A DNA stretch of 64,000 bases from Shigella phage SHSML-45. Both the position numbers and the translations under genes were made by a program. Position 1 is the first letter of the stretch. Every line of letters starts with the position of its first letter. Positions 36,107 through 64,000 of the stretch are shown in pieces. The stretch lies in the sequence record KX130863, one strand, 5' to 3'. Under the pieces are notes generated by a model. It was not told the DNA's origin, ran no database searches, and saw nothing but the letters and a program-made list of their open reading frames with translations.

Positions 36107-36180
36107 AATAAAATTCCTCCTATGAAGTAATATTATAACAAAATTTTCGAAAGTGTGCAAGTGAAATTTTTATATTTGAA

Positions 36181-36705: not shown

Positions 36706-36732
36706 TCCCTATAACCGCCCTGTATAGAAAAC
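36706..36732 (+). repeat. direct repeat AATAAC(C/T)GCCCTCCCTATAACCGCCCT, copy 2
   Basis: Matches 36181-36207 with one mismatch. Confidence 0.65.
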
Positions 36733-37234: not shown

Positions 37235-38119
37235 CTATAATAATTCTTGGTATGCTTTCTGATACGCCTCAGTATCTGTAGGTGTATCTTTTGCTAACGC
37301 AATTAGTTCATCCGTTATCTGAATATTCGTATTATAACGTTGGTGGAACTCGTCTGGAATTTCTAGATATCTATTTATGAATGCTGCAGCAAGCGGTGTA
37401 ACTAACCCAATTTCTAGAGATAACTTAACTTGTTTCTCATAAATTAAATATTGAGAATCAGACGGTATTGGTGGGGTTACATCAATTTTTTCTGGTTCTT
37501 TTTCTGGTAGCAATGGATTGTTATACAATGCTTCATCTGGAAGCACAGATTTACGCTCTTTAAATATATAAGTTTCTAGATCAGATGCTTTAGACCCTGA
37601 ATACACAGCAAAAACGCTAGCTTTACCTTGAGATGCCCTAACTGGTAAGTAACTAGTAGGGTAGCTCCTTAATGCATCGTGGAATGGACTTCCTGAGTAT
37701 TTGTATGTATCCCCATAGAGATCATCAATATTCATTCGTTCATCTTCAAAGATATGGAAAGAGCTAAATGATGGGATAGTAAAGTATTCCATCTGTAATC
37801 CATAAACTAAGAAACGATGTGCGTATGCACTGATTTTTAAGACTGTAAATGCTTTCTCACCTTCTTTATAGGAATTGCCTTTTGAAGTAACTTGGTAACG
37901 TTTACAAAACATCTCTACTAGACGTTTCTCATTAATACCAAGAGTGGAGTACAGTCGTCCATTTAATCCTATAAGTGCATCGAACATAAATGCTAGTTTA
38001 TCTTTTTCTTCTTGGGATAGTTCTGGAAATGGCAATACTTTGGCATTAGGAACACTATTGTTCTCTTTAGGTTTTGTTTTACCAGCATTTTGTCTTAGTT
38101 TATCTTTAAAGTTATACAT
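37235..38119 (-). CDS. hypothetical protein (294 aa)
   Basis: First long minus-strand ORF after the repeat region; no recognised motif. Confidence 0.55.
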   Translation of the reverse strand: MYNFKDKLRQNAGKTKPKENNSVPNAKVLPFPELSQEEKDKLAFMFDALIGLNGRLYSTLGINEKRLVEMFCKRYQVTSKGNSYKEGEKAFTVLKISAYAHRFLVYGLQMEYFTIPSFSSFHIFEDERMNIDDLYGDTYKYSGSPFHDALRSYPTSYLPVRASQGKASVFAVYSGSKASDLETYIFKERKSVLPDEALYNNPLLPEKEPEKIDVTPPIPSDSQYLIYEKQVKLSLEIGLVTPLAAAFINRYLEIPDEFHQRYNTNIQITDELIALAKDTPTDTEAYQKAYQELL

Positions 38120-38198
38120 TATTATCTCCCGTTTTTAAGGTCTGGATGACCTTCTTTTTATTTTAGAGCCTCCGTAGAGGCTCATATATTAGGAATTA

Positions 38199-38810
38199 TT
38201 AATCCTTTTTACTCTCATTAATAACAGCCCCCAATGCTTCCATAATTGCATCTTCTAGACTTCCATGTTTATCAGGATTACTAAAATGAATAGTATAAAC
38301 AGAATTCCTAGAAACTCCAGCATCCGCAGGTGCTACGCTTCGCATATCAGATTCAAAAGCTTCTTGGGTATGTTGCAGCTGTACAGAAGGGCCGTAATCT
38401 TCACCAAACTTATATGACTGTGTGTTACTTACCACACCCCCACAAGGAACATTGTGCATATCCGACATTAATCTTTTATCAGAATTATTTAACATTGCAA
38501 TTGGCCCAGACTGCCATGGATCTCTAATAGTCACTGGAGTACTAGGGCGGTTCACCTCAGTCTTCACAAGTTTGTACCCTGCATCGATTAGTGCATTAAT
38601 CAGGTTATCCGCCGGGATGCGAGCCGTACCAAAAATCTTACGAGCATCTTCGAGCTTACCTTCAAGATCTTTACATGCTCTAAGGTCAGTGTGTGCAAAT
38701 GTTAGCTTCATAGATTTGAATTGTACAGTAGCAGTTAAATCTTTAAAGCTATAATCCCATGTGTTCAGTTCATGGTCTGGTACTACTTGAATAGGTTGTT
38801 GTGTAAACAT
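38199..38810 (-). CDS. hypothetical protein (203 aa)
   Basis: ORF start-stop coupled to the downstream small membrane protein genes. Confidence 0.5.
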   Translation of the reverse strand: MFTQQPIQVVPDHELNTWDYSFKDLTATVQFKSMKLTFAHTDLRACKDLEGKLEDARKIFGTARIPADNLINALIDAGYKLVKTEVNRPSTPVTIRDPWQSGPIAMLNNSDKRLMSDMHNVPCGGVVSNTQSYKFGEDYGPSVQLQHTQEAFESDMRSVAPADAGVSRNSVYTIHFSNPDKHGSLEDAIMEALGAVINESKKD

Positions 38811-50130: not shown

Positions 50131-50816
50131 CTACGCACCTCATAATGTGTTTCTATGTATTGTTCCACTTCTACTGGAGAAACATTGAAAAACTCTGTAC
50201 TTCCACTAAACCCCCCATAACTGCATCTTTTATTTTTATAGACACTATGTAGGTCAGCTTCGATCTTAGCTGTTTCTTCCTTAGAACCCTTGCCACAAAT
50301 ATAGTAAGATGATACTCTCAGATCTTTAAAACCACTACAAGACTTAACTTCTAGAAGTCTTTTCTGCACACTCTTACTTATACCTATTTTTATGCCTTTA
50401 TCTGAAACAAATATGTATAAAAATCCTTGTGTATCCCAAGCTGTTTTGGCACAATTTGGGCACCCACTATGGTGTAAAACGTGGTTAGTGGTTGTCTCCC
50501 ACTGATGGGAACATGTATTACATAAAAACTTTAGCTTAGAAGTAGAATTAGTATATTCACTTAGTAATACGATTTTTCTAGGACTGAGGAGTGAGTTAAT
50601 CCTGTCTTTGGTTAACTTTTCATTGCCTGCACATTTTGGGCATCCTCTACCTTTATTTCTGACATTTGTAGGGGCTGTTAACCATGTATTAGAGCATATA
50701 AGACACTTAAATTGTGTCTTTGTCTTATTATGTTCATATTCCCCTACTAATCTTACTGTCCTACCTTGAGCTTCTAAATCTTTATTAAAGATTTCTTTAT
50801 TTATTTTTACGCTCAT
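50118..50816 (-). CDS. putative homing-endonuclease-like protein, T5orf172/GIY-YIG-related, with zinc ribbons (232 aa)
   Basis: CPKC and CPNC zinc-ribbon motifs, GFLYIF...KIGIS core, C-terminal GSTEFFNV; paralog of 19294-19968. Confidence 0.5.
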   Translation of the reverse strand: MSVKINKEIFNKDLEAQGRTVRLVGEYEHNKTKTQFKCLICSNTWLTAPTNVRNKGRGCPKCAGNEKLTKDRINSLLSPRKIVLLSEYTNSTSKLKFLCNTCSHQWETTTNHVLHHSGCPNCAKTAWDTQGFLYIFVSDKGIKIGISKSVQKRLLEVKSCSGFKDLRVSSYYICGKGSKEETAKIEADLHSVYKNKRCSYGGFSGSTEFFNVSPVEVEQYIETHYEVRRCTK

Positions 50817-51222
50817 CCCTACAGTACTCCAAGCTACCAGAAAGACATGCTAATCTTTCCTCGAATTCCTTACTCTGCTTTTTAGCAATTAATGTAACCA
50901 ATCCAGGCTTTGCAGCTATAATATCTTGACGACTAAGTGCTTTATCAAGCTGATTAATTTTCTTGTCTAGATCTGCTTGCGAAACATTATTCATTGTGAA
51001 ATACTGATTCATTCGAGTCTCACGAAGTTCACTCTCAGCCCTCACATTATTAAGGGAAGTTTCTAGAGAAGAGATCTTTTTAGTAGCTACTGCAAGATCA
51101 CCTGCTAGAGTCTCAACCTTATTAACTAAGTGATAAGCACCGAATCCGATGCCTATCGCCAAACCAGCTCCCAGGATATACCACTTACCTTGCCATAGAG
51201 AACTAATAAAGTTTTTTATCAT
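50797..51222 (-). CDS. membrane-anchored coiled-coil protein, spanin-like (141 aa)
   Basis: N-terminal TM helix (WYILGAGLAIGIGFGAY) followed by a long charged helical region. Confidence 0.4.
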   Translation of the reverse strand: MIKNFISSLWQGKWYILGAGLAIGIGFGAYHLVNKVETLAGDLAVATKKISSLETSLNNVRAESELRETRMNQYFTMNNVSQADLDKKINQLDKALSRQDIIAAKPGLVTLIAKKQSKEFEERLACLSGSLEYCRDERKNK

Positions 51223-51899
51223 CTTTTCATATTCCTGAATGACGTAACCGTATCAAATCCATGTGCTGCTAGGCGGTCTTTATCAGAAATGGTAATAATA
51301 TCTGGTTCTCCTGTTCCAAGTACGCCCCAGATATATTGTTCAATTCTCTGGTGTAATCGGTATAAGTTGCTTTCAACTTCCTGCCACGGAATACCTGATA
51401 GATGTAGGCGTGGGTTAGTTATAACCTTGAAATACTTATTACTATCTTTATCATTTGGAACTACTGAGTCTAGAACCGCTAAAGGTACTCTTAACTCAGC
51501 TAAGGCTTCTTCAGCTTTAGAGGTAACTTCTTCTTGCCAGGATAGAATAGATTCTTTTGGCTTTCCTCTATTTATATCTAGTAGAGAAAATCCCGTTGAC
51601 CATCCATTCTCTTTCAAAACTTCTAATGCTTTGTCTAGGTTGAAAGTTTTTACTTGAGTATCCAATACATCAATATGGTACATCCAGTAAATCTCTCCTG
51701 CTAGGAAAAACGGTAGAATTTTAAAGTAGCCTTTCTTTTCACCAACACGAGCAATCATACGTTCTTGCATAATCATGTAGTTGCCATCATCTGGAGCCTT
51801 TATTGTTAGCTCTTCAGTTTTACGCTCCCAAGCACGATCGGGGTCAAACAAGCTGTTCTGCAAATCGTATACATCTGCCCATTTACTAATAATTCTCAT
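51219..51899 (-). CDS. hypothetical protein (226 aa)
   Basis: ORF start-stop coupled to neighbours. Confidence 0.45.
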   Translation of the reverse strand: MRIISKWADVYDLQNSLFDPDRAWERKTEELTIKAPDDGNYMIMQERMIARVGEKKGYFKILPFFLAGEIYWMYHIDVLDTQVKTFNLDKALEVLKENGWSTGFSLLDINRGKPKESILSWQEEVTSKAEEALAELRVPLAVLDSVVPNDKDSNKYFKVITNPRLHLSGIPWQEVESNLYRLHQRIEQYIWGVLGTGEPDIITISDKDRLAAHGFDTVTSFRNMKR

Positions 51900-51902
51900 A
51901 GT

Positions 51903-52418
51903 TTATCCTCTAAATCCCTCGTAAATAGCAAATTCACCAAAATACTCGAATCTTAACTCATTAGCAGTTTCTACTGCTTCTTTAAGATCACTAAAGATTC
52001 CGCCATAGATTGTTTTTCTATCTTTAGTAACAGAAACTTGCCACTTATTAGCTCTTTTATTCCAACTTACATTTTTGTAACCTGAAGTATTATTAGAGTA
52101 CTTTGACTTATTGGCATTATTCTGTGATTCAGTAGACTCCCTCAAGTTATCCCAAACATTATTTGTTGGGTTAATATCTTTATGGTCTATGTTTTCTGGT
52201 ATATAACCTTTCTTATATAGAAAGGCTAACTGATGAGCATAGTAAGGTTTTCCATCAATTCTTATAGAAATATACCCATTGGATTTTCCACCAGCTAAAC
52301 ATCCAGCATGTCTGGCATTCCATGCATTATCTAACTCTTTTCTGAACTTCCACCTAAAATTTCCAATATGTTCATCATACTCCAGAATACTTTTTAGGTA
52401 TTCTTGTGTTAATTCCAT
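51903..52418 (-). CDS. HNH homing endonuclease (171 aa)
   Basis: Motif AHQLAFLYKKGYIPENIDHKDINPTNNVWDNLRES. Confidence 0.7.
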   Translation of the reverse strand: MELTQEYLKSILEYDEHIGNFRWKFRKELDNAWNARHAGCLAGGKSNGYISIRIDGKPYYAHQLAFLYKKGYIPENIDHKDINPTNNVWDNLRESTESQNNANKSKYSNNTSGYKNVSWNKRANKWQVSVTKDRKTIYGGIFSDLKEAVETANELRFEYFGEFAIYEGFRG

Positions 52419-52568
52419 AATATAATTGATCCTTTTGCCTCAATCTATAAACATATTATACAATACTTGTGGCATCTGAGCAACTGAAATTTTATTACAA
52501 AAATAGCCCAGTCGCAAAATTGCAGGCTGGGCTTTGTCATTATTATTCTTGCTAGGAGGTGATTATCA

Positions 52569-52958
52569 TCACTCTTGTTTACTTAATTCTCTAGCACGAC
52601 GTAGCGATCCAGCGGTTCTCCATAGTTTAATGTCGTCAACAACTTCTTTGTAGGGAGCAATAGTAAGACCTAGCGGCCCCGCTACCAACAGTCCAAAGAA
52701 ACCAATTACACGCATGTAAAGCAAGCATTCTTTGGGAGTCATTGACTGGACAGCCTGTCTTTCCTCAGCACTGTCGAACTCGTGTTCTTGATAGTCTAAA
52801 CGTAGGTACTTAATAAACCATTCAGCAGAATATTCATCCAGATGACGAATAACTGCAATAGCATAGCCTAAACCAATAATAAACCATGCTGCTACAATGA
52901 ATAAAATAAAGCTCATGATATCTCCAGTTAAAGTTGAGGTCAGCGACCAACTCACCAC
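52569..52958 (-). CDS. membrane protein (129 aa)
   Basis: Two hydrophobic helices. Confidence 0.4.
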   Translation of the reverse strand: MVSWSLTSTLTGDIMSFILFIVAAWFIIGLGYAIAVIRHLDEYSAEWFIKYLRLDYQEHEFDSAEERQAVQSMTPKECLLYMRVIGFFGLLVAGPLGLTIAPYKEVVDDIKLWRTAGSLRRARELSKQE

Positions 52959-54264
52959 TTACCGCACTAAGGGGCACGACTCCCTTATCCGTAACAGTTG
53001 CAGGTGACGCAACTCGGTCCTACGCGAGTTCTTTACTTGCTCTGCATTTCAGCGCGAAACTTTTTCATCTTACGAGTTTTACGGAAGAAGAAGTAAGTAG
53101 CTACTGGCCCGAACAAGGTGTCCATGATAAGCATACCTGACATAATGAATTTGAACATCTTTTCATCGTCAAATTCTGCTAATTCTGGTGGACGATATTT
53201 GTTTATAACATAAAGAATAACATCTTTATTTTTAGAGATATACAGATCATCAATCAGGCTGTAAATCGCGACAACTGCACCAATAACAAACCACAAAGCA
53301 AATGGAGAGATAATCATTTAAGATCCTTTTCATCAATTAGAATAGTAACAAACAATGGTACACAACCTGGGCACAAATCTTTACCAAACTTTTCCATCAC
53401 ATCCCAAAGTGGTAAAGTAATCACACCATTCTTAACTCTAGGATCTGTATACTCAGCTATTCGTTTATTTGCAAAATCAGTAGCTAAATCTGAGTTATGC
53501 TCGTAGCTATAATCAGTCCAGAATTTAACATGATCCTTTCTAAGATATTCTAGTACAGCATCAGTTGCTGGAATCTGTACTAGACTGTTGAGATTTAGCT
53601 CTTTCACGTTCTTCTCTCCGACGTTTGCGTTCTTTCATCATGTAAGCTGCTACAACTTCATGGTAGTAGTCGTTAATGTTACCTTCAGGCAAGAAATGCT
53701 TAATCGTTTCTAGCTGGCAGACAACACGGTAAAGATGTTTATTTGGTAAACATAATTTCATGCCCATAACAAATCCAGAGAAGCCTGGAACACTGAACAT
53801 GGGTTGGGCTTCTACGTTGCCCTCTGGATTGATACTAAGTTCAATCGAGATGCCCATTTTCATGCTATAAAGCTGACAGCCTTCACCATTGCCAAATCTT
53901 GACCAAACAGTGAAGTCCTCATCTATCTGATCTTGGATTTCTTCGACTGCATGTTTAATTCTAGGGTCTAAATTACTCATCTTCACCTTCAAAGCCGCAG
54001 TCATAACGGCAAGTAAAAGAATCAGAACTATTAGTACGTTGAGTAGTGATTTCACCACGTTTACTAACAGTAATAGCCGGAGTAGAGAAGTTTTTATTAG
54101 TATAGATTTCTACTTTGCCATTACGTTCTTTAACATCACGTACTTTACCATATTCGGTGGTAATGCCGTTCTGTTGTATCCTAACACTACCATTTTTCAT
54201 AGAAACTTTGGTAGATGCCAGAGAACCGAAACTAACTGCTGAGATTACTAGAGCAATAATAAAC

Positions 54265-54546
54265 TTATTCATCTTCATCGTCCTCTTTACAGTCACGGCA
54301 TACATCATAATCATTGAAAGAATGTTCGTGAGCTTCACACCACCAAGAACAAGAATCGCACAAGAAAATTTCTGTTTTCTCTATTGACTGTCCAAGCAGT
54401 TCGTCTGCTTCATCTTCTGTGATTTTCAAACTACAAACATCAGCAACACGTTTAACAATCATTTTACCTGCTTCATGATAAGACATACAAGTCCCAACAA
54501 CATCATGCTCAAGTACATGAACAGCACAGTCTAAGTGAGTTTTCAT
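54265..54546 (-). CDS. Cys-rich small protein (93 aa)
   Basis: CDSCSWWCEAHEH...CRDCKE paired-cysteine motifs. Confidence 0.4.
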   Translation of the reverse strand: MKTHLDCAVHVLEHDVVGTCMSYHEAGKMIVKRVADVCSLKITEDEADELLGQSIEKTEIFLCDSCSWWCEAHEHSFNDYDVCRDCKEDDEDE

Positions 54547-54623
54547 TTCAAAGCCCTCTCTATCAATTTATATAAATATTATATCAATAAAGAGGCTCTT
54601 TAGCAAATGAATTATTTACGAAA

Positions 54624-54971
54624 TTAGTCGTAGCACCACCATAAACCACGCTTACGCATGTCATGGTCGCGATTATAATCATAATTTTCTGGATCTTTCA
54701 TCACGCGGTGGAGTTCTTGACGATTCCCTTGACGAACCATTTTATTAGAATGCCACTTAACATTCTTACTAATAGAATTCCAGTTATAACCATCCTTTTT
54801 CTCATTACGAATGGTTGCTTCCTTCATTTCTTTTTTGATGTCGTCCCAAGATTTGGCATAAGTAACACGAATGTAGTAGCCACTTGCTTTGAGGAAAGTA
54901 TATCCCTGGGTGTAATTAGCTTTAGACTTCCACCACTGATCACCAGTTTGTCTACGATAAGTACGGCTCAT
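54624..54971 (-). CDS. hypothetical basic protein (115 aa)
   Basis: ORF, Arg/Lys/Trp-rich. Confidence 0.4.
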   Translation of the reverse strand: MSRTYRRQTGDQWWKSKANYTQGYTFLKASGYYIRVTYAKSWDDIKKEMKEATIRNEKKDGYNWNSISKNVKWHSNKMVRQGNRQELHRVMKDPENYDYNRDHDMRKRGLWWCYD

Positions 54972-55092
54972 ATTACCTCCATTAAGTCTTTTAAATTAAC
55001 CTAATGTGGATGAATTTTATTATACATAAACTATTTTCCTGTACACAGAAAAACCCCAGACTACTTATTCAATAGCTGGGGTTTGTTATTAA

Positions 55093-55407
55093 TTACAGAT
55101 CGGGGCGTTCATCTTCGAAACAGCCTGAGCTAATTCCTTCTCCGAATCCTACAAAGCCATCAAATTCGTCATTTGAGATGCCCATAATCATTGCTTCCAT
55201 TTTCCTAATCTCCGAGATTTTCATGCCTGCTTTACTATTCTTATAGTACTTGCGAGGGTTCCCACACATCCAACAAGAACAGATGCAAGGAGTAGTAGTG
55301 ATAATACCTAACCGTTTAGGGCTTTCTTCATGTGGGAAGACTGTCCAATACTTTTTGCGATTGTTCTTCACACGTTGCCGGTGATGGCGTCTCAATGCTC
55401 GATCCAC
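55093..55407 (-). CDS. small zinc-ribbon protein (104 aa)
   Basis: CICSCWMCGNPRK motif. Confidence 0.4.
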   Translation of the reverse strand: MDRALRRHHRQRVKNNRKKYWTVFPHEESPKRLGIITTTPCICSCWMCGNPRKYYKNSKAGMKISEIRKMEAMIMGISNDEFDGFVGFGEGISSGCFEDERPDL

Positions 55408-55488
55408 ACATTTCTCCTAAAACTTGGGAGATAAATGGAGTTTGCTCGACTACCTTGCGTAGCTGGGAGAAATCGTATCCAAACCCCA

Positions 55489-55857
55489 TTACATCGCCTG
55501 AGTAAATGTACGACTAATAACGTCGTTCTGTTGTTCACGAGTCAGTGCGTTAAAACGTACAGCGTACCCTGAAACACGGATAGTTAATTGAGGGTATTTT
55601 TCAGGATGTTTCTGTGCATCCAAAAGCTGATCACGACTTAACACATTGACATTTAGGTGCTGACCTCCCTCGATTTGAGGAACTACTTCCACCTTGACTT
55701 CACGGAAGGATTCGGGGTCAAAATGTGGTGTGATACCTTCTAGATCCTCAACCAGAACTTTTTGTTTAAGTTCACCATCTTTAGAGTACAGTTGAATAAT
55801 CTGATTATCATGAACAAGATTAATTACGCCAGACTTAAGATTTTGATATGCTTTCAT
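55489..55857 (-). CDS. grcA: autonomous glycyl radical cofactor GrcA-like (about 122 aa)
   Basis: C-terminus [57 protein letters not shown] closely matches recalled E. coli GrcA/YfiD including the RVSGY glycyl radical motif; AGGAG RBS before ATG at 55857; the track ORF extends into the adjacent tRNA. Confidence 0.8.
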
Positions 55858-55870
55858 TAGCTCTCCTGTT

Positions 55871-55946
55871 TGGTAGTTAGTAGTGGATTTGAACCACTGT
55901 AGTCGCTCCGTATGAAGGAGGTGCATAACCACTCTGCCAACTAACT
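55871..55946 (-). tRNA. tRNA, anticodon CAU (Met or Ile2)
   Basis: Cloverleaf read manually: 7-bp acceptor stem, T-arm AGTGG-TTCAAAT-CCACT, anticodon loop TTCATAC, encoded CCA. Confidence 0.7.
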
Positions 55947-56042
55947 ATTATGTTTTACTAGGCTAAGTAAGTATTCTTTATACTCTTTAGACCAACTAGC
56001 TTTTTTAAACTTTCCTGGACGCATAGCCTTAATTCCTAGATT

Positions 56043-56119
56043 TGGTACTCCGGGAGGGATTTAAACCCCCGATCTCTCGGTTATCAGCCGAGTGCTTTAG
56101 ATCGCTAAGCTACCGAAGC
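56043..56119 (-). tRNA. tRNA-Ile (GAU)
   Basis: Anticodon arm CTCGG-CTGATAA-CCGAG; T-arm with TTTAAAT loop; acceptor stem with two G-U pairs; encoded CCA. Confidence 0.6.
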
Positions 56120-56134
56120 ATTAAAATATTTACA

Positions 56135-56425
56135 TCACACACTGTCTAAGTAAGAAGTATAGTGGAATTTAGTTTCTCCAGTATTATCTACTTCTACCTC
56201 AGTTCGTGGTACTTGACGAACCACACCATGAATCATCTTATATCGGATGCCTCTAGCTGGTTCATGATCTTTTGGAAATACTTGTTTAACCGTCACTACT
56301 TTATATTCTTCACGCGGTGTTAGCACTACTACTTGATCACCCTCTTTGATTTTCCAAGAAGATGGAAATTCATAGGTGTATCTTTGACCACCGGTAAGGA
56401 ATATAACAGAAAGATAACGTTTCAT
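56135..56425 (-). CDS. hypothetical protein (96 aa)
   Basis: ORF between tRNA genes. Confidence 0.4.
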   Translation of the reverse strand: MKRYLSVIFLTGGQRYTYEFPSSWKIKEGDQVVVLTPREEYKVVTVKQVFPKDHEPARGIRYKMIHGVVRQVPRTEVEVDNTGETKFHYTSYLDSV

Positions 56426-56502
56426 TTGGTTTCCCTCTCATTAATTTATATAAATATTATAGCAATAAATAAGAGAGAAAGCAAATGAGTTTTTCTTGAA
56501 AT

Positions 56503-56578
56503 TGGTAGCGGGTTCCAGTACTGCCCTGGACTTACTTAGCTTATGAGACTAAGAAGAACTCTATGCCTCCCACCCGCA
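56503..56578 (-). tRNA. tRNA-like, anticodon CAU, atypical T-loop
   Basis: 76 nt fitting standard cloverleaf positions: anticodon arm TTAGT-CTCATAA-GCTAA, T-stem TCCAG/CTGGA with non-canonical loop GGCAGTA, one acceptor mismatch, encoded CCA. Confidence 0.45.
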
Positions 56579-56831
56579 ATTGTTTGGTCATTCTAGGCAG
56601 GACTCGAACCTGCTATCACTTGTGCGGACTTACGAGAACCATTCTTTCACTCGAATCGAACGAGCTTCTGCCCTCGCCAAGTTGGTTTCCCCATCAACCA
56701 CGCTAGAATGTTAGATTGTTTTCAGTGCAAGAGTCCGAGTCTTGGACACGACCGCTTCGCAAGTACATAGGCAGCTTATCATGAGTCAGCACTTCCGAAT
56801 TGCTAGCTCCGTGTTCTGCACTGAAATTCTG

Positions 56832-57179
56832 TTAGTTTAATCGTAAAGTATTATCTACTTCACCATTAATTGTTCGGCATTCCTCTGGGATTGCCGGGGT
56901 GGCCTTGTATTCCCACCACTCAGCACCATCATATTCCCCACGTTCTAGCCAAGTTCCATCGGCAAACCATACATTACCATAAAGTAATTGTCCACCGTAT
57001 CCAGAATCATATTCAAAGTCTAGGTTATTAAGAAAATCCTCAATGTATTCTTCTGTATAACCTAAAGGTAATACCCAAACTTTTTTATCCCCATAATACC
57101 CGAATTCTATTTTAATACACTTAACTTTAGAATTGGTATTTTTTAAGGCGAGTAACAGCTCTTCTTTAGCATTACGCAT
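56832..57179 (-). CDS. hypothetical protein (115 aa)
   Basis: ORF between tRNA genes. Confidence 0.4.
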   Translation of the reverse strand: MRNAKEELLLALKNTNSKVKCIKIEFGYYGDKKVWVLPLGYTEEYIEDFLNNLDFEYDSGYGGQLLYGNVWFADGTWLERGEYDGAEWWEYKATPAIPEECRTINGEVDNTLRLN

Positions 57180-57204
57180 AGTATATTCTCATACTGAATT
57201 ATTT

Positions 57205-57281
57205 TGGCGCGACCGATGGGATTTGAACCCACATTCCCTCCCGTGACAGGGGAGTACCATTACCAAGCCAGCCCCGGTCGC
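57205..57281 (-). tRNA. tRNA-Asp (GUC)
   Basis: Acceptor GCGACCG/CGGTCGC, anticodon arm CTCCC-CTGTCAC-GGGAG, T-loop TTCAAAT, encoded CCA. Confidence 0.75.
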
Positions 57282-57578
57282 ATAATTTATTTACTCAGCT
57301 TTGAGTTTTTCAATAGCTGCATTAAGTTCTTTAAGAAACTCTTTTCGTACATTAAGACGATTGAGACTTACTAGTATATCATGTTTAAGTTCTTCGATGT
57401 ATTTCTTCTCAACTTCAATATTGTTGATAGTGCTATCACGATGAACTTCTAGCTGCGCAATCACATTCTTGGACATGCTTGTTTCCTCAGTTATTAATGA
57501 AAATGGTATCTGTGGCTGAATTCGATGTCAGCAATGATAGCTGGTTGGCTACCGGTTTACTTAACTCTACACAGAATT

Positions 57579-57661
57579 TGGCGGGCCGTGTAGGATTCGA
57601 ACCTACGTTGTCTTTCGACACGGATTAACAATCCGCCGCCAAACCGCTTGGCTAACGACCC
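57579..57661 (-). tRNA. tRNA with anticodon GUU (Asn) and unusually long variable region
   Basis: Anticodon arm GCGGA-TTGTTAA-TCCGT, T-arm GTAGG-TTCGAAT-CCTAC, encoded CCA; 83 nt with a 13-nt variable segment GTCGAAAGACAAC. Confidence 0.55.
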
Positions 57662-57813
57662 TAAATTTATATTGCTGACTAGGATTTTCACCTAGACGGA
57701 GTTAGCACCGTAGCGTGTAGCGGCATACCTCTCCAAACCGTGCCTCATCTTTCAATTACGGAGACAGTGTTCCTACGCGTGCCTGAATTGATTTAACAAT
57801 TCTTTCAGCAAAT

Positions 57814-57889
57814 TGGACGACCGCATGAGATTTGAACTCACATAAAAAGGATTTGCAATCCTTCGCCTAAGCCATTCAGCCAACGGTCG
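57814..57889 (-). tRNA. tRNA-Cys (GCA)
   Basis: Anticodon arm AAGGA-TTGCAAA-TCCTT, T-arm GTGAG-TTCAAAT-CTCAT, encoded CCA. Confidence 0.7.
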
Positions 57890-58406
57890 ATCTATCTTGT
57901 TTTTCGAGATCTTCAAATTCTAGATCATTGAAGTTCCCTAGAGTACGGGTGTAGAACCTATCTCCTGAGTCATAGCCTGATTTACCACAATCATACATTT
58001 TAAATTCACGAAGAGGTGTGAAAATGTGTTCAGAACCACAACACTTAAATCTAACTAATCGTTTCATTAGCTTCTCCAGTTCAATTTATGTAATTATTAT
58101 ATAGAACTTTTGGAAACTAAGCGACTACATTTTTTAAGAATTTGATGCCTTTCTTTTTCTTCTTATATTTCCACGTTAATGGATTTTGTCGATTATGAGC
58201 GCTTGAGATCTTTGTCTCGTCAAAGTTCTTCAATATCATGTAATCACAGGATAATTGTTCTAGTGGAATGTGATCACCGTCAAAAGCGTATACATAAGGC
58301 TGTTGACTAGCACGATAATGATAGACTTTGTTAATTCTACGTTTCAGCGACTTATCCGCGCAGTAAATAAAGAAGTTTTCAGGATGCATCAGCATCTACT
58401 TCAATT

Positions 58407-58490
58407 TGGTGCATCGTGATGGATTTGAACCACCAACCCCGAAGGGCACGGATTTACAGACCGCTGCAATAGACATTCTGCCAACGATGC
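58407..58490 (-). tRNA. tRNA, probable Tyr (GUA), class II with long variable arm
   Basis: Acceptor GCATCGT/ACGATGC, T-arm GGTGG-TTCAAAT-CCATC, anticodon loop CTGTAAA, ~15-nt variable arm; anticodon stem imperfect. Confidence 0.5.
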
Positions 58491-59366
58491 ACATTTAAAA
58501 GTATTCAAATACTAGTTTAAACACTTTTAAATATGTTTCCAAATTAGATAACTATTATACCAAGTTTTAAGGCACTGAGCAAGTCAAATTTCGAAGAACT
58601 TGCTCAGTGCTGTATTAGTTAGTCGAACTTAGGAGTGACAGTTAAGGAGAACGGAAGTTCAAAAACTTCTTCCCCCTCATTACTAACTGTAACTACACGA
58701 CCTTTAAGTTCAGACATTAAAATATCAATATCAGCTTTTGCATCTGGAGCCATGCCAGCTTCAACACATTTAGCTTTAACTTCCGGAAGGAGTTCTACAT
58801 CGTAGAAATAAAGCCATTCAATCTCACCTTCCCAGCCTTCCCAGGATTTACAGATTGCACTTTCAATACCAGTTGCTATAACACGATTTTGCATTCGTTA
58901 ACTCCTTCATCAATTTATATAACTATTATATCAGAAATTTAAAGTAAAAGGCAAGTACATTTTTAAAAATTCTATTCGGAGGAGCTAAACTCCAGATTCT
59001 TCGGCCAAGTCTAGACTAATAAGAGTTATAGCCATAATTGCCGCACCATGTTCTTTTTCCCCGGTGTTTTTAGCAGAGTCTATAATATCCTTAATCTGTT
59101 CGTAATAACTTTTTACTTCTTGTTCAATACCTGCCTCGGCTATCATGCCTTTAGTCATGATTCGTTGCATAGTAATTTCACGGTTAGCCATGATGTTTCT
59201 CCAGCTTCATTTTTAATAGTTTACAAATGAAGTCAACGTCTTCATCTGTGCCTAGATCTCTATCTTCAAGAGTTGCCTTGAAGTTTTTCGTTAGTTCCAT
59301 AAGAACTACTTCTCTAGAACGACGTGTTGGCGGGGGTGGATGTCTATACATCTTATTTCCTTAATT

Positions 59367-59441
59367 TGGTGGGTCGGAGGAGAATCTAACTCCTACTCGT
59401 TAGCTTATGAGGCCACCGCTTTAACTTTAAGCTACCGACCC
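59367..59441 (-). tRNA. tRNA, anticodon CAU (Met or Ile2)
   Basis: Acceptor GGGTCGG/CCGACCC, D-arm GCTT-AAAGTTA-AAGC, anticodon loop CTCATAA, T-arm AGGAG-TTAGATT-CTCCT, encoded CCA. Confidence 0.55.
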
Positions 59442-59447
59442 TATGTT

Positions 59448-59536
59448 TGGCGGAAGAAGGGGGAATCGAACCCACAAGGCTATATTTCAAACCGACAGAT
59501 TAGCAATCTGCTGCAATACCGTTATGCTATTCTTCC
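59448..59536 (-). tRNA. tRNA-Ser (GCU), class II
   Basis: Acceptor GGAAGAA/TTCTTCC, anticodon arm GCAGA-TTGCTAA-TCTGT, long variable arm, T-loop TTCGATT, encoded CCA; 89 nt. Confidence 0.65.
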
Positions 59537-59557
59537 GAATTTATAAGATATATTATA

Positions 59558-60076
59558 TTAGAAATTTAGCTTCATGGCAAGAAAATTTTTCAAGTTTTCG
59601 GTAGACATCTCATCCACATCTATAGGAGAAACAAACCCATTTAATTGTCTAGCAAACTTTTCGCCAGCAGGATCATTATCCCCAACAGCTACCAATTTAA
59701 AAGGTAGTAATTTCAATTGCTTTAATAGCGGTTTTCCTGGAGAAGAACCCAACATTGCTAGAGCAGGATACCCAGCATTATGTAATGCTACAGCCTTAAA
59801 TACAGATTCAGCAATTAATACTACTTTTTCATCCCCATTGAGAGTTTCTAGTCCCCATACACACTGTGTAGTAGAATAAGTAAAATATCTAGCTTCAAAG
59901 GGGCACTTACCATGACCTTTTGGAGCAGAAGGATTATAAGTCTGATAGCCTCTCAACATTCCAGAGAAGTCATACAATGGGACTGTTAGCCATCCTTCTG
60001 GGCTTAACCAGCAGTGATATTTATCTGTATCAAACCCTCTAGATAAGAGATGTTCTGTTAGTTCATCAATAGTCAT
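59558..60076 (-). CDS. Toprim-domain protein (about 172 aa from internal start)
   Basis: Toprim-like signature: conserved Glu in VVLIAESVFKAVAL and DxD in LVAVGDNDPAGEKFARQL; GAGAGG RBS before ATG at 60076. Confidence 0.5.
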   Translation of the reverse strand: MTIDELTEHLLSRGFDTDKYHCWLSPEGWLTVPLYDFSGMLRGYQTYNPSAPKGHGKCPFEARYFTYSTTQCVWGLETLNGDEKVVLIAESVFKAVALHNAGYPALAMLGSSPGKPLLKQLKLLPFKLVAVGDNDPAGEKFARQLNGFVSPIDVDEMSTENLKNFLAMKLNF

Positions 60077-60361
60077 ACTAGATTCCTCTCTCAAATTTAT
60101 AAATATATTATGCAGAGAATTTAGCATTCAAGCAATTGAATTTTTTAACTTTTTAGAGGAAAATCACAGGATGCTTAAGGGTAGCAGGTAAGTGGGTAGA
60201 CCCCAAAATTGTTATCCCCACTTGATTTTCAATGTGATATAGTGTAAAGTATTTGTCATAGCTGAGTGACCAAAGAGACACACTTATCCTCTACCTTAAA
60301 ACAGAAAAGCCCTGCGCTCTCCAGGGAACACAGGGCTTACTTCGAATATTACGTGTGGGAA

Positions 60362-61309
60362 TTACTTGTTACGCATATCCATAATCATCTGGCCATCGTA
60401 ACCAGTGCCAACTACTGTTTGAGGTACACCGCCTTGATATTTCTGAGCACGAATCATTTCAACTTCTAGTTGTTTCCAGCGAATCATCTCAGGAGTAATA
60501 GTACGTTGCAGAGCGGCGTTAGCTTCGGCTTCCTTCTTAGCTGCGTACAGTTTAGCATCTGCATCACGTTCGTTTGCAATAGCTTGGTTGTTACGAGCTT
60601 CACGATCTGCTTCTGCTTGTTTAACCTTCTGCTGTGCTTCTTGTTCAACACGAGCCAACTCAGCTTTCGCAGCATTAACTTGTTCCTCACGAACTTTGGT
60701 ATTCTGTACCTGTTCCACGATTACAGGCGGCAAAGTAATATCCTGAAGGAACACTTGCTTAACTGTGTAACCATAAGGGCGTGCATACTCTTCAACTTCC
60801 TGTTGAATTGCGGTTTGTAATTGAGCCTGGATTTTAGCATCAAACAAATCTTGTGCTTTAGGAACAGACTTACCGAACTCACGAATAGTGGACAGTAATT
60901 TTTCAGTTACATATTTGTCTAATGCTTGATCCTGGGTACCTGCGTTAATACGGTTAATCGGTGCCTTAGAACCATCAAACTGCAACATAACAGTCAGGTC
61001 AACAGTGGATTTAAACTTATCCTGACTAGGAACCTGAAGTTTATCTAATTTTACAGCAATGTCTTTTGTACTAAAAGTATCGAAAGATGCAAATGGGTTT
61101 ACAAGATGAAAACCAGGTAATACAGGATTAGGGTCTACTTTACCCAGAAATGTTTGGGTTTTAACCGTACCATCAGAAACAATAGTATATGAATTAAAAG
61201 CTAGGATTAAACCTGCTAAACCAACTACAGCACCAATACCCCAACGTTTAATAGTGCGAATTACTTTTTGCTCAGAAGTCAGTTCTTTCATATTTTTAGT
61301 ATTAAACAT
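60362..61309 (-). CDS. SPFH/band-7 (stomatin/prohibitin-like) membrane protein (315 aa)
   Basis: N-terminal TM anchor, central SPFH-like region, C-terminal Ala/Glu/Gln-rich coiled coil. Confidence 0.6.
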   Translation of the reverse strand: MFNTKNMKELTSEQKVIRTIKRWGIGAVVGLAGLILAFNSYTIVSDGTVKTQTFLGKVDPNPVLPGFHLVNPFASFDTFSTKDIAVKLDKLQVPSQDKFKSTVDLTVMLQFDGSKAPINRINAGTQDQALDKYVTEKLLSTIREFGKSVPKAQDLFDAKIQAQLQTAIQQEVEEYARPYGYTVKQVFLQDITLPPVIVEQVQNTKVREEQVNAAKAELARVEQEAQQKVKQAEADREARNNQAIANERDADAKLYAAKKEAEANAALQRTITPEMIRWKQLEVEMIRAQKYQGGVPQTVVGTGYDGQMIMDMRNK

Positions 61310-61547
61310 ATATTTCCTTATTATTTAGAAGAGTTAGCTACTACAGTTACTTTAGTTGCAGAAATAAACAGGCTAGCATCCACAGCAAATTCAGGAGCTT
61401 TGATATCTCCATTATGAAATATGACTATACCGGAGACTACTTCAAATGCTAGTGCTGTAACATCGGTGGTATTTACTTGTGAATGTTCACCTACTACTTT
61501 TACTATATATCGTGTTTTCACTTTATTTTCCTAGCAGTTAATAAAAT

Positions 61548-61622
61548 TGGCCGAGGTGACAGGATTCGAACCTGCATAAAGGAATTTAGAAGACTCCTGC
61601 CTCTCCCTTAGACTACACCCCG
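61548..61622 (-). tRNA. tRNA-Arg (UCU)
   Basis: Acceptor CGGGGTG/CACCTCG, anticodon arm GGAGT-CTTCTAA-ATTCC, T-arm GCAGG-TTCGAAT-CCTGT, encoded CCA. Confidence 0.6.
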
Positions 61623-62123
61623 TTTAAGTATTTTTAAGAACTCTCGTAAAAACTCTTAAAAATACAGACGATACCGGGAGAGTCATAAGTCTCACTCATT
61701 AAGTATTTCAAGACAAAATACAGTAACGTCTATTATTTTCCAGTTTAAGTCAAGGTGACTTAGTGGTTATGTCCTGCGGTATACTGAGGACTCGGTTAGG
61801 TTAGGGTCATGACTCCCCACCTTTTGCTGCTACTCAACAGGAGTTATCGCGAATTACCTGTGCTATTGTGCACCATTAGTGACATCTCTCATGTCAGCAT
61901 TTCCCACTTTGTGGATAGCTTGAAAAACTACTCCGATATGGAGAAAGAACTTCACTATCCTAGAATACCTTCTAAAGTTCTTCTTTAGCCTGGACATAGT
62001 TAAATCGTAATAAAACTATTCAGCAGACTGGTTGGTTAGTCTGGAACCAACTACCGCGTGGTTTAGGCAGTGCGCAACTAACCTCGGAAGCTTTTACGTT
62101 AAAAGCACCAGTTATCCAGTTCT

Positions 62124-62195
62124 TACCGACCGTAGGATTCGAACCTACATCTTCCACCAGTTACGGCTTGATAATACCGTTTATACTAGATCGGC
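62124..62195 (-). tRNA. tRNA-like sequence, anticodon undetermined, no encoded CCA
   Basis: Canonical T-arm GTAGG-TTCGAAT-CCTAC and pairable acceptor GCCGATC/GGTCGGT, but no convincing anticodon stem by manual folding. Confidence 0.4.
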
Positions 62196-62308
62196 AGTGT
62201 TACTACATAAGTGATTTCCACACCCCACTATTTATAAATTAGAGAAGAATTACTCTCTAATTTATGAATATATTATACAGAATTTATAAGCATTTAGCAA
62301 ATGAATTT

Positions 62309-62743
62309 TTAGAAAAACTCGCTAGCAATCAAGGCGGCTGTTTTACCATCATAACGCCCCGGAAACTCTGCCTTAATAGTTTTCATTAGGAGAGCTTTGG
62401 TAATACCTGGGTTTAGCTTAACCAATTCTGCAAAATATTTACGAATTTCAGTTTCAGTTAGCTGTTGTAGTGCATAATCATGCTCTAAACGCGCTAAAAG
62501 ATCTAAGTATTCAGCATCAGGAGTATAGTCAACATTCGATTTTTCAGCGGCAATCCGTGTATTCTCAATTGCTTTGAGTTGTGATTTCAACCAGTTAGTA
62601 AACTCCAGCTCAGTTACGCAATCTTTATCAATACGTTGCAGGTCTCCTAGAACCGTACTTAGATGCTTAACTGATACAGCGTCACCACTTTTGCGAGCAG
62701 CTTCAATCAACTCTCGCAGTACATAAAGCATGTTCATGCCCAT
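62309..62743 (-). CDS. hypothetical protein (144 aa)
   Basis: ORF. Confidence 0.45.
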   Translation of the reverse strand: MGMNMLYVLRELIEAARKSGDAVSVKHLSTVLGDLQRIDKDCVTELEFTNWLKSQLKAIENTRIAAEKSNVDYTPDAEYLDLLARLEHDYALQQLTETEIRKYFAELVKLNPGITKALLMKTIKAEFPGRYDGKTAALIASEFF

Positions 62744-62981
62744 TATTTCATCCCCAATGCTTGGTTAAAAGATTGTTCTGTCATAACTACTGAGACTTTG
62801 GCGAAATCAAACTTTTTAGGGTTCGTAGTGATCTCAGCAACGTTGGAAGTTTTAACAGTTTTCGTAGTACGAATACCGCGAGTGCTAACACCAATGACGA
62901 TCAAGTTTTTCATATTTCGCTTCCTCTCATTAATTTATGAAAGTATTATACAGAAGTTTAAGTATTTAAGCAAATAAATTT

Positions 62982-63431
62982 TTAAGTTTTAGTGACAGCA
63001 GGCTTATAAAATGTATGTCCCTTAATCTTAGTTGTTTTCTTAAACTTCTTTGTCCAGTATGGTTTATCTTTACCACTATGGAAGTATAAAGCTCCATGTG
63101 TAGGATCTTGTGGTAAATCAACGTAGTATATCACTCTAGCTAAATTCTTGGCAGTTTGCCAAGCCTCATCGGTTTTATCAACTTTTGGTCTCTTAGATAC
63201 CCAAGAGAACTGGTTAGACTGATATACTACTTTACAGTAGGAATCTGGAAATTTGCCGGAGTTTACACGGTTTTTAGTAACCTGTGCAACCGCCATCATT
63301 CCCTTTATGCCCTCACCACGACTCTCGAAATAGATATTTTTAGCAATGCAATCTATTTCTTTTGCATCGTGCGATGCTTGACTACTAAAGCTGAAGGTAA
63401 GGGCAGCTACTAAAAGCAAAGCTGCCTTCAT
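62982..63431 (-). CDS. secreted cell wall hydrolase, SleB-like (149 aa)
   Basis: N-terminal signal peptide (MKAALLLVAALTFSFSSQA); motif NIYFESRGEG...MAVAQVTKNRV typical of SleB-type hydrolases. Confidence 0.55.
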   Translation of the reverse strand: MKAALLLVAALTFSFSSQASHDAKEIDCIAKNIYFESRGEGIKGMMAVAQVTKNRVNSGKFPDSYCKVVYQSNQFSWVSKRPKVDKTDEAWQTAKNLARVIYYVDLPQDPTHGALYFHSGKDKPYWTKKFKKTTKIKGHTFYKPAVTKT

Positions 63432-63443
63432 TCTTTTTACTCC

Positions 63444-63875
63444 TTAAAATAGATCATATTCTAATCTATTGGGATTTTCTCGGTATCCATAAGACGTAAG
63501 AGTACCCCTCATATACTCTGCGTCAACAGGATTAGATGTTACTAGAACCACTTTTAGTGGTCTTTGACCTAAAAATAGTATATGATCTAATAAGTCTTTT
63601 CCTTGTACCTCTGGATCTCCTAAATCTGAGTCCATAAATAAATAGGATCCTGTGAAACTAAATATATCTGATAGCTCCAGCGCACCTATAACTGTACGAC
63701 AAATAATGGACATTTCAGGTAGATCTCTAACATCGTCTATTAGAATATTGGTCTGCTTCCCAATTTCTGCATTACATAAACCATTTACTAGTTTTTCTCT
63801 TTCCCCTTTAGCTTGTTCGAAAGTGGTGAAGCCAGGAGATACGAAAAACTTTCCACCTAATGTAATGCTATACAC
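63444..63875 (-). CDS. hypothetical protein (143 aa)
   Basis: ORF. Confidence 0.45.
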   Translation of the reverse strand: MYSITLGGKFFVSPGFTTFEQAKGEREKLVNGLCNAEIGKQTNILIDDVRDLPEMSIICRTVIGALELSDIFSFTGSYLFMDSDLGDPEVQGKDLLDHILFLGQRPLKVVLVTSNPVDAEYMRGTLTSYGYRENPNRLEYDLF

Positions 63876-64000
63876 AAAACCCTCGGGGAGGAGTTCTACA
63901 CCTACGGTTTTATTAGTATTAATCCTATTTAACTTAAAATTTGTCTCTCTTAGATTAATAATTCTGTTATCCCACGGTATAGTATTTATATGGTCGATCA

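What the first reader, a model, noticed from the sequence alone, without database searches (positions are those of the whole stretch)
55489..55946. Phage-encoded GrcA-like glycyl radical protein immediately downstream of a tRNA
The C-terminal 60 residues closely match recalled E. coli GrcA, including the RVSGY glycyl radical loop. A phage copy could act as a spare part for oxygen-damaged host pyruvate formate-lyase or anaerobic ribonucleotide reductase during infection in low-oxygen conditions. The longest ORF would overlap the CAU tRNA at 55871-55946, but an internal ATG at 55857 with an AGGAG RBS resolves this.
Basis: partly seen in the sequence, partly recalled or inferred. Interest (0 to 1): 0.5.

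Follow-up and report, generated by a model that had tools for sequence, protein, structure and literature searches.

The report
T5-like phage GrcA spare-part protein
This is a real 122-residue phage gene for a small glycyl-radical "spare part" protein of the GrcA/YfiD kind, which most likely repairs the host's oxygen-damaged pyruvate formate-lyase; the kind is already known from phage T4 and already annotated in close T5-like relatives, so it is ordinary.

Summary
Window 55489-55857 (- strand) is a 122-aa gene starting at ATG 55857, with AGGAG at 55867-55863, 13 nt downstream of tRNA-Met(CAU) at 55871-55946.

- **Source:** this part of the window is 100% identical to Salmonella phage Shivani (Tequintavirus, T5-like), gene CPT_Shivani58.
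- **C-terminal half:** residues 62-122 are a PFL-type glycyl radical domain (TIRVSGYAV, Gly97). They are 77-82% identical to the last 62 residues of E. coli GrcA, PflB and TdcE.
- **Phage relatives:** the whole protein is 53% identical to T4 Y06I. With E. coli YfiD, Y06I is one of only two spare-part proteins shown biochemically to be activated by PFL-activase and to rebuild oxygen-cleaved PFL. An identical protein in a sister phage is already annotated "autonomous glycyl radical cofactor", and about 1,580 phage records carry a homologue.
- **RNR alternative rejected:** there is no similarity to the phage's own NrdD, whose radical site reads RVCGYLG.
- **Activase:** none was detected in the phage, so host PflA must arm the protein.
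- **T5-clade features:** the first ~35 residues have no detectable relatives, and the C-terminal tail is TdcE-like.
- **tRNA adjacency:** it results from a ~260-bp difference (a 65-aa ORF) relative to T5.

Verdict: correct reading, known kind, low interest.

The parts
55489..55857 (-). Coding sequence of the 122-aa GrcA-like protein (ATG 55857-55855; stop TAA 55491-55489). Equals CPT_Shivani58 / AJA73505.1.
   Evidence: phrog_1209 full-length E 9.4e-48. Against T5_ev219 there are 9 synonymous versus 4 non-synonymous codon differences.
55863..55867 (-). Shine-Dalgarno AGGAG, 5 nt before the ATG. The stretch GGAGAGCTAATG is conserved in T5_ev219.
   Evidence: Annotated as an RBS in KP143763.1.
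55675..55857 (-). N-terminal half (residues 1-61), specific to the T5-like clade. Residues 35-61 align with other phage GrcAs, and only about residues 51-61 align with bacterial GrcA. AlphaFold2 predicts beta strands at modest confidence.
   Evidence: hhalign. TIGR04365 matches residues 50-122 only. phmmer of residues 1-59 against 1.84 billion representatives gave no true relative outside the clade. AF2 block-mean pLDDT 62-81.
55492..55674 (-). C-terminal glycyl radical domain (residues 62-122), PFL-type.
   Evidence: Pfam PF01228 residues 62-103. Over the last 62 residues (61-122): 79% identical to PflB, 82% to TdcE, 77% to GrcA, 79% to T4 Y06I. The C-terminal part of the model (alignments of about 50-60 columns) superposes on 6OWR and 2PFL. 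DNA is 74% identical to E. coli pflB over nt 184-369.
55558..55584 (-). Glycyl radical loop TIRVSGYAV (residues 92-100). The Gly97 codon GGG is at 55569-55567 and is the predicted radical site, equivalent to GrcA G102 and PflB G734.
   Evidence: Regex match. The columns are invariant in alignments A1 and A2. The model places the motif in a beta hairpin, strands 92-95 and 98-101.
55871..55946 (-). tRNA-Met (anticodon CAU) with encoded CCA, 13 nt upstream of the ATG. It is a neighbour on the same strand and presumably on the same transcript. It is not a functional part of the gene.
   Evidence: ARAGORN and Rfam RF00005 at 51.5 bits. In T5_ev219 a 65-aa ORF separates the tRNA from grcA.
55050..55084 (-). 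Intrinsic terminator (GC-rich hairpin followed by a U run). It lies after the next gene (55093-55407) and is the likely 3' end of the transcript carrying the GrcA-like gene.
   Evidence: RNA fold -19.3 kcal/mol, z = -3.5. Annotated as a terminator in KP143763.1 at 29659-29686. The simple pattern scan missed it.

Best explanation

Mechanism, inferred by homology:
1. The protein is made from the early-region transcript that also carries the phage tRNA cluster.
2. Under low oxygen, the host radical-SAM activase PflA abstracts a hydrogen atom from Gly97 in the RVSGY loop.
3. The C-terminal 60-residue domain copies the part of host pyruvate formate-lyase (PflB, or its paralogue TdcE) that is lost when oxygen cleaves the enzyme at its own radical glycine. 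It docks into the damaged enzyme.
4. [quoted passage not shown]

Likely benefit to the phage, which is inference only: this keeps fermentative ATP and acetyl-CoA production running in a microaerobic infected cell. It would also keep up formate, the reductant of the characterised E. coli-type class III ribonucleotide reductases, and the phage encodes an NrdD of that class. Host protein synthesis, and hence renewal of PFL and host GrcA, is presumably shut off in such a cell.

What is shown: the sequence and fold identity of the radical domain, homology to T4 Y06I, and the absence of a phage activase. What is inferred: activation by PflA, docking to cleaved PFL, and any benefit during infection.
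For: - **Radical domain:** Pfam Gly_radical E 4.7e-18. PDB GrcA 6OWR E 2.5e-30 and PflB 698-759 E 5.8e-27.
- **Identity of the last 62 residues:** 48-51 of 62 identical to E. coli GrcA, PflB and TdcE. E63 through T119 are largely invariant across 40 phage and bacterial GrcAs.
- **Structure:** the predicted C-terminal domain superposes on the YfiD NMR structure and on PFL crystal structures.
- **T4 homology:** full-length homology to T4 Y06I, 53% identity, E 4e-40.
- **Literature:** Y06I and YfiD are the two spare parts validated biochemically. Both receive the radical from PFL-AE and form a complex with oxygen-cleaved PFL (PMC8683613; PMC13450708). In vivo, GrcA G102 passes the radical to PflB C419 (PMC12338860).
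- **Purifying selection:** 9 synonymous versus 4 non-synonymous codon changes against T5_ev219.
- **Distribution:** homologues in 1,583 phage records, of which 435 are at least 80% identical.
- **Activase:** no PflA- or NrdG-like protein by tblastn in the window plus the Shivani loci, with a positive control recovered. No radical-SAM domain in the ORFs next to nrdD.
- **NrdD and formate:** the phage carries NrdD. Formate is the reductant of most characterised class III RNRs, shown originally for the E. coli enzyme (PMC4493059).
Against: - No experiment exists for any T5-like member.
- The protein fails NCBI's GrcA equivalog cut-off: TIGR04365 scores 121 bits against 170, because only residues 50-122 match.
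- In E. coli YfiD the N-terminal half matters for binding cleaved PFL and for efficient activation. The N-terminal ~35 residues here are unrelated in sequence to bacterial GrcA, so binding behaviour could differ.
- From memory, not checked here: the gene lies in the tRNA-rich region that T5 deletion mutants can lose, so any benefit must be conditional.
- The link between GrcA and NrdD in phages is only anecdotal. Both occur in T4-like and T5-like phages, but no formal co-occurrence test was possible.
Confidence: 0.78

Rival explanations
1. It is a spare part for a class III (anaerobic) ribonucleotide reductase, either the phage's own NrdD or the host's. It would replace the oxygen-cleaved C-terminus of that enzyme.
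For: The phage encodes NrdD, itself a glycyl radical enzyme, about 21 kb away in the Shivani record. Reviewers of the field speculate that spare parts for other glycyl radical enzymes may exist (PMC8683613).
Against: - BLASTP of the protein against the phage NrdD finds nothing (best E 16).
- The NrdD radical site reads RRVCGYLGSPG and follows a Cys-rich zinc-ribbon-like segment. It is unlike [14 protein letters not shown].
- Every NCBIfam and PDB hit is of the PFL/dehydratase branch, with the best being GrcA, GrcA2/3 and PflB. No NrdD model or structure is hit.
- No NrdG-like activase was found.
Confidence: 0.03
2. It is a decoy rather than a repair part. It would soak up host PflA, or occupy PFL unproductively, to shut down or redirect host fermentation. 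Its clade-specific N-terminal half would provide the altered behaviour.
For: The N-terminal ~35 residues have no detectable relatives. They are predicted as a beta sheet at block-mean pLDDT 62-81, whereas the YfiD N-terminus is disordered by NMR. The protein fails the GrcA equivalog cut-off.
Against: - All residues of the radical domain that are invariant in bona fide GrcAs and PflB are kept, including Gly97 and the flanking RVSGYAVRF. A pure decoy would not need them all.
- The T4 homologue, which shares the MKAYQ start and overall architecture, restores PFL activity.
- The modest pLDDT and low pTM (0.38) make the N-terminal fold uncertain.
Confidence: 0.06
3. It is dedicated to the PFL paralogue TdcE (2-ketobutyrate/pyruvate formate-lyase) rather than to PflB.
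For: The last 22 residues are 20/22 identical to E. coli TdcE, against 17/22 for PflB and 15/22 for GrcA. Over 62 residues TdcE is the closest, at 51/62.
Against: The differences are small (51, 49 and 48 of 62). At the DNA level pflB is the best E. coli match. TdcE is a minor, threonine-induced enzyme (own knowledge). T4 Y06I, whose domain is 60/62 identical to host GrcA, works on PflB.
Confidence: 0.08
4. It is a neutral passenger: a fragment of a host pfl-type gene picked up by the phage, with no function in infection.
For: It lies in a mosaic, indel-rich region full of small ORFs, tRNAs and homing endonucleases. From memory, the corresponding T5 region is deletable.
Against: - It is kept intact at 122 aa in hundreds of T5-like genomes.
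- Synonymous changes exceed non-synonymous ones.
- Its own SD and start codon are conserved.
- Homologues are kept independently in T4-like, jumbo, Aeromonas and Vibrio phages.
Confidence: 0.05

Closest known systems
Bacteriophage T4 Y06I (Wagner et al. 2001, BBRC 285:456). By position it lies in the regB-denV interval of T4 (locus L004:4001-4360).
   Same: Phage-encoded, about 120 aa, same MKAYQ start, same two-part architecture. 53% identity over the full length, E 4e-40. The radical domain is 79% identical. Both fall in the same PHROG family, phrog_1209. Y06I is activated by PFL-AE and reconstitutes oxygen-cleaved PFL.
   Different: - The T4 radical domain is almost a copy of host GrcA (60/62). 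The T5-like one is equidistant from GrcA, PflB and TdcE at 48-51/62.
- The T4-type N-terminal half is clearly homologous to that of bacterial GrcA (hhalign probability 97.9%, E 5.5e-13). In the T5-like protein only residues 35-61 align, and it carries an extra [12 protein letters not shown] segment.
- The T5-like member has not been tested experimentally.
E. coli GrcA / YfiD (P68066; PDB 6OWR; TIGR04365; InterPro IPR011140)
   Same: Stand-alone small glycyl radical protein. The C-terminal domain is 77% identical, including RVSGYAVRF. The predicted fold of the C-terminal domain is the same.
   Different: It scores below the NCBIfam equivalog cut-off (121 versus 170 bits), and only residues 50-122 match. 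The N-terminal ~50 residues are not recognisably similar. It is phage-borne and sits in a tRNA cluster, rather than under the host's own regulation (FNR and acid control, from own knowledge).
C-terminal glycyl radical domains of E. coli PflB (residues 698-759) and TdcE
   Same: 79% (PflB) and 82% (TdcE) identity over 62 residues. 74% DNA identity to pflB. It is the very segment that oxygen cleavage removes or disables.
   Different: It lacks the ~700-residue catalytic barrel and cannot be an enzyme on its own.
GrcA-like proteins of other T5-like phages (for example PV654516.1 'autonomous glycyl radical cofactor', LR597655.1 'gcrA putative autonomous glycyl radical cofactor GrcA')
   Same: 89-100% identical, 122 aa, same genomic neighbourhood.
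   Different: Only the annotation wording differs ('acetyltransferase', 'pyruvate formate-lyase', 'ribonucleotide reductase subunit', 'hypothetical'). In T5 proper a 65-aa ORF lies between the tRNA-Met and the gene.

Membership tests
GrcA/YfiD autonomous glycyl radical cofactors | Small stand-alone protein (~120-130 aa) without the glycyl-radical-enzyme catalytic barrel | tested here: met
   122 aa, with a conserved start and stop.
GrcA/YfiD autonomous glycyl radical cofactors | C-terminal glycyl radical domain with the signature [STIV]-x-R-[IVT]-[CSA]-G-Y-x-[GACV] (PROSITE pattern quoted from memory), and close similarity to the last ~60 residues of PFL | tested here: met
   TIRVSGYAV at residues 92-100. 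Pfam PF01228 E 4.7e-18. 79% identical to PflB 698-759. The model's C-terminal domain matches 6OWR and 2PFL.
GrcA/YfiD autonomous glycyl radical cofactors | Scores above the curated NCBIfam equivalog threshold (TIGR04365, 170 bits) | tested here: not met
   121.1 bits, with only residues 50-122 aligned. The shortfall comes from the divergent N-terminal half, not from the radical domain.
GrcA/YfiD autonomous glycyl radical cofactors | N-terminal half homologous to that of bacterial GrcA (needed in YfiD for binding cleaved PFL) | tested here: inconclusive
   - T5-clade N-terminus versus the bacterial profile: only 11 columns align, probability 6.8%.
- T5-clade N-terminus versus other phage GrcAs: residues 35-61 align, probability 91%.
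- Other phage GrcAs versus bacterial GrcA: 58 columns align, probability 97.9%.

The region is therefore linked transitively, but the first ~35 residues are not recognisable.
GrcA/YfiD autonomous glycyl radical cofactors | Glycyl radical installed by PFL-activating enzyme, and activity restored to oxygen-cleaved PFL | not testable with these tools
   Shown only for E. coli YfiD and T4 Y06I (PMC8683613).
Phage GrcA-like proteins (phrog_1209; T4 Y06I type) | Full-length match to the phage family profile and to T4 Y06I | tested here: met
   phrog_1209 E 9.4e-48, residues 1-122 on profile positions 1-121. T4 Y06I E 4e-40 over residues 1-122.
Spare part for class III ribonucleotide reductase (hypothetical family) | Radical domain resembling the NrdD C-terminus (RxCGY after a Zn-binding Cys cluster) | tested here: not met
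   No alignment to the phage NrdD. The NrdD C-terminus reads CFNCGY...CPSCGS...RRVCGYLG. No NrdD family or structure appears among the hits.

The most novel reading that the evidence does not exclude
The T5-like clade may have remodelled GrcA into a phage-specific tool. Three observations point that way:
- The N-terminal ~35 residues have no relatives anywhere in 1.84 billion representative proteins, and they are predicted to be folded rather than disordered.
- The tail is TdcE-like.
- The genome carries NrdD but no activase.

The protein might then recognise a different state or paralogue of host formate-lyase (for example intact or un-activated PflB, or TdcE). Its main role could be to secure formate for phage class III ribonucleotide reduction. 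That would be a metabolic coupling between two glycyl-radical systems that has not been described for phages.
Probability: 0.12. Interest if true: 0.45.

Novelty: already known. Interest (0 to 1): 0.15.

Why it matters
It matters little beyond correct annotation. The public records name this same protein in six or more different ways ('acetyltransferase', 'pyruvate formate-lyase', '2-ketobutyrate formate-lyase', 'ribonucleotide reductase subunit', 'hypothetical protein', 'autonomous glycyl radical cofactor'). The evidence here supports only the last.

Biologically, it is one more sign that T5-like and T4-like enterobacterial phages are equipped for the low-oxygen gut. They carry NrdD plus a PFL spare part and rely on host activases. 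A conditional phenotype for this gene has never been reported. A simple knockout study under oxygen shifts would show whether phages really benefit from repairing a host fermentative enzyme.

Tried and rejected
- **NrdD as target.** BLASTP against the phage NrdD found nothing. Rejected.
- **Phage-encoded activase.** Pfam scans of the six ORFs around nrdD gave only HAD_SAK_2, DUF7415 and T5orf172-type domains. tblastn with E. coli PflA and a phage NrdG found nothing in the window plus Shivani loci L003 and L009 (best E about 1), while the positive control was recovered.
- **Longer 147-aa ORF from GTG 55932.** Rejected. It overlaps the tRNA, and the extension is stop-ridden in T5_ev219.
- **Functional coupling of the tRNA with the gene.** Rejected. 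The adjacency reflects a ~260-bp difference relative to T5, which has a 65-aa ORF there.
- **Promoter and terminator pattern scan of 54900-58000.** It gave counts no higher than in shuffles and missed the real terminator. Folding the RNA recovered it.
- **Independent relatives of the N-terminal half.** phmmer of residues 1-59 against 1.84 billion representatives returned two hits. One is a frameshifted T5-like fragment. The other is a mycoplasma-type repeat protein, matched through a low-complexity KDGKLKIKV repeat, which is a chance hit. Foldseek against viral models gave only weak hits to small beta proteins (E > 0.05).
- **Literature on a T5-like GrcA.** Searches returned no paper.
- **Formal GrcA/NrdD co-occurrence test.** Not possible, because the search tool lists at most 60 records. 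Only the overall counts could be compared: 1,583 records with GrcA against 2,921 with NrdD.

Full report
**What is there.** On the minus strand of the window, ARAGORN and Rfam place a tRNA-Met (anticodon CAU) at 55871-55946. Thirteen bases downstream an ATG at 55857 opens a 122-codon reading frame that ends with TAA at 55491-55489. AGGAG lies at 55867-55863, five bases before the ATG. The mechanically longest ORF (GTG 55932, 147 aa) runs through the tRNA and is not the gene, for four reasons:
- All 32 close homologues listed are 122 aa, and the seven of them aligned begin MKAYQ or MKVYQ.
- The T4 homologue starts with the same five residues.
- GenBank annotators of two relatives chose the same ATG.
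- In T5_ev219 the in-frame upstream extension has three stop codons.

**Where the window comes from.** Window 55000-57000 is 100% identical to Salmonella phage Shivani KP143763.1 (Demerecviridae, Tequintavirus, a T5-like phage). About 450 T5-like records match at 80-100%. The gene is CPT_Shivani58 (AJA73505.1), annotated 'acetyltransferase, glycine radical domain'. The window as a whole is a permuted relative of Shivani rather than the record itself. Window 1-21938 holds structural and tail genes at 93-95% identity. Window 25479-36519 matches the terminal-repeat region. Window 50791-64000 is 99.76% identical to Shivani 25396-38605.

**What the protein is.** Residues 62-103 match Pfam Gly_radical (E 4.7e-18). 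The best solved-structure matches are E. coli GrcA/YfiD (6OWR, E 2.5e-30) and the last 62 residues of pyruvate formate-lyase (E 5.8e-27). Over the last 62 residues the protein is identical at:
- 48 positions to E. coli GrcA,
- 49 positions to PflB,
- 51 positions to TdcE,
- 49 positions to T4 Y06I.

The radical loop TIRVSGYAV (residues 92-100, Gly97) and some 40 other positions are invariant across phage GrcAs, bacterial GrcAs and PflB. At the DNA level, nt 184-369 are 74% identical to E. coli pflB. An AlphaFold2 model (mean pLDDT 71) gives helix 75-83, hairpin 92-95/98-101 and helix 107-117. Foldseek finds the YfiD NMR structure and PFL crystal structures as the top hits. The whole protein matches PHROG family phrog_1209 end to end (E 9.4e-48). 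It is 53% identical over its full length to the T4 protein at L004:4001-4360 (E 4e-40), which is T4 Y06I.

**What is known about the kind.** Wagner et al. (2001) showed that E. coli YfiD and T4 Y06I receive a glycyl radical from the PFL-activating enzyme. Both then form a complex with oxygen-cleaved PFL that is catalytically active. According to a 2021 JBC paper these remain the only two validated spare-part proteins (PMC8683613; see also PMC13450708). In vivo, the radical on GrcA G102 is passed to PflB C419 (PMC12338860). A phage-encoded GrcA is therefore an established concept. The T5-like version is already labelled 'autonomous glycyl radical cofactor' in several GenBank records, including one encoding an identical protein (PV654516.1). 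tblastn finds homologues in 1,583 phage records: T5-like, T4-like, jumbo phages of Serratia, Klebsiella, Salmonella and Yersinia, and Aeromonas and Vibrio phages. From my own knowledge, these hosts are facultative anaerobes of the Gammaproteobacteria.

**How it most likely works.** By homology, host PflA arms Gly97. The C-terminal domain substitutes for the oxygen-destroyed C-terminus of host PflB (or TdcE), and pyruvate cleavage to acetyl-CoA and formate resumes. The phage brings no activase of its own:
- The ORFs around its nrdD carry no radical-SAM domain.
- tblastn with E. coli PflA and a phage NrdG finds nothing in the window plus the remaining Shivani sequence, although the control locus is recovered.

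The gene is under purifying selection, with 9 synonymous versus 4 non-synonymous codon differences from T5_ev219. It lies on the same strand as the tRNA cluster. It is followed by one more gene (55093-55407) and then a strong intrinsic terminator at about 55050-55084. It is thus probably expressed from the tRNA-region transcript.

Why a phage would want it is inference. In an infected cell whose own protein synthesis is curtailed, repair of PFL would sustain fermentative energy and acetyl-CoA. It would also sustain formate, the reductant of most characterised class III ribonucleotide reductases, shown originally for the E. coli enzyme (PMC4493059). The phage encodes such an NrdD. Both T4-like and T5-like phages carry NrdD and GrcA, but I could not run a formal co-occurrence test.

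The phage NrdD ends ...CFNCGY...CPSCGS...RRVCGYLGSPG. BLASTP between it and the small protein finds nothing (best E 16). No NrdD family or structure appears among the NCBIfam or PDB hits. The domain is of the PFL type.

**How it differs from canonical GrcA.** The protein fails the NCBIfam GrcA equivalog threshold (121 versus 170 bits), because only residues 50-122 align. Profile comparison of the N-terminal halves gives three results:
- T4-like and jumbo-phage proteins are clearly homologous to bacterial GrcA over all 58 columns (probability 97.9%).
- The T5-clade N-terminus aligns with the other phage proteins only over residues 35-61 (probability 91%).
- It aligns with bacterial GrcA only over the last 11 residues.

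A phmmer search of residues 1-59 against 1.84 billion representative proteins found only a frameshifted T5-like fragment and a chance repeat-protein hit. The model predicts beta strands in this half at modest confidence, whereas the YfiD N-terminus is disordered by NMR yet needed for binding cleaved PFL. The last 22 residues are closest to TdcE (20/22). These features leave room for altered partner recognition, but they are small variations on a known theme.

**The tRNA adjacency is not meaningful.** In T5_ev219 a 65-aa ORF (about 260 bp) sits between the same tRNA-Met and the gene. The conserved sequence resumes exactly at GGAGAGCTAATG. The 13-nt spacing in the window lineage is an indel outcome.

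**Verdict.** The gene is an already-known kind, present and in part correctly annotated in public records, with a biochemically characterised T4 homologue. Interest is low. The only open points are experimental: no T5-like member has been tested, and no infection phenotype is known for any phage GrcA.

Noticed in passing
window 55871-62196 (- strand): All ten tRNA genes are on the minus strand by ARAGORN and Rfam, the same strand as the flanking genes. The Shivani GenBank record KP143763.1 annotates them on the opposite strand, while T5_ev219 has them on the minus strand. This is probably a strand error in the Shivani record.
   Followed up: partly
window 62123-62196 (- strand): ARAGORN calls this tRNA 'Ser, anticodon ACT', an unusual anticodon. 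It has the weakest Rfam score of the cluster (36.8 bits) and is not annotated at the corresponding place in the Shivani record (36728-36801). It may be a degenerate or atypical tRNA.
   Followed up: no
window 55858-55870, compared with L002:2359-2632: T5_ev219 has an extra 65-aa ORF (about 260 bp) between tRNA-Met and the GrcA-like gene. It is absent in the window lineage. It illustrates the indel mosaicism of the tRNA region.
   Followed up: yes
window 1-64000: The window is not colinear with the linear Shivani record. Tail and structural genes (1-21938, 93-95% identity) are followed by terminal-repeat-region sequence (25479-36519), and then by the early/tRNA region (50791-64000, 99.76% identity). 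This suggests a circularly permuted assembly of a mosaic Shivani relative.
   Followed up: partly
L003:26064-27890 (Shivani nrdD; outside the window): The Shivani-type NrdD is only about 60% identical to the NrdD of most other T5-like phages. Just 49 records are at least 95% identical. This indicates replacement of the nrdD allele within the genus. No NrdG-like activase was detected.
   Followed up: partly
window 55328-55489 (- strand): A 53-aa ORF starts at an ATG that overlaps the GrcA stop codon (TAATG). It overlaps, in another frame, the annotated next gene (GTG 55407, 104 aa). Against T5_ev219, by my reading of the alignment, its first ~20 codons carry mostly non-synonymous changes. It is probably not coding.
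   Followed up: partly
window 55941-56024 (- strand): A 27-aa ORF is annotated in Shivani (CPT_Shivani59) between tRNA-Ile and tRNA-Met, overlapping the tRNA-Met by 6 nt. Its reality is doubtful.
   Followed up: no
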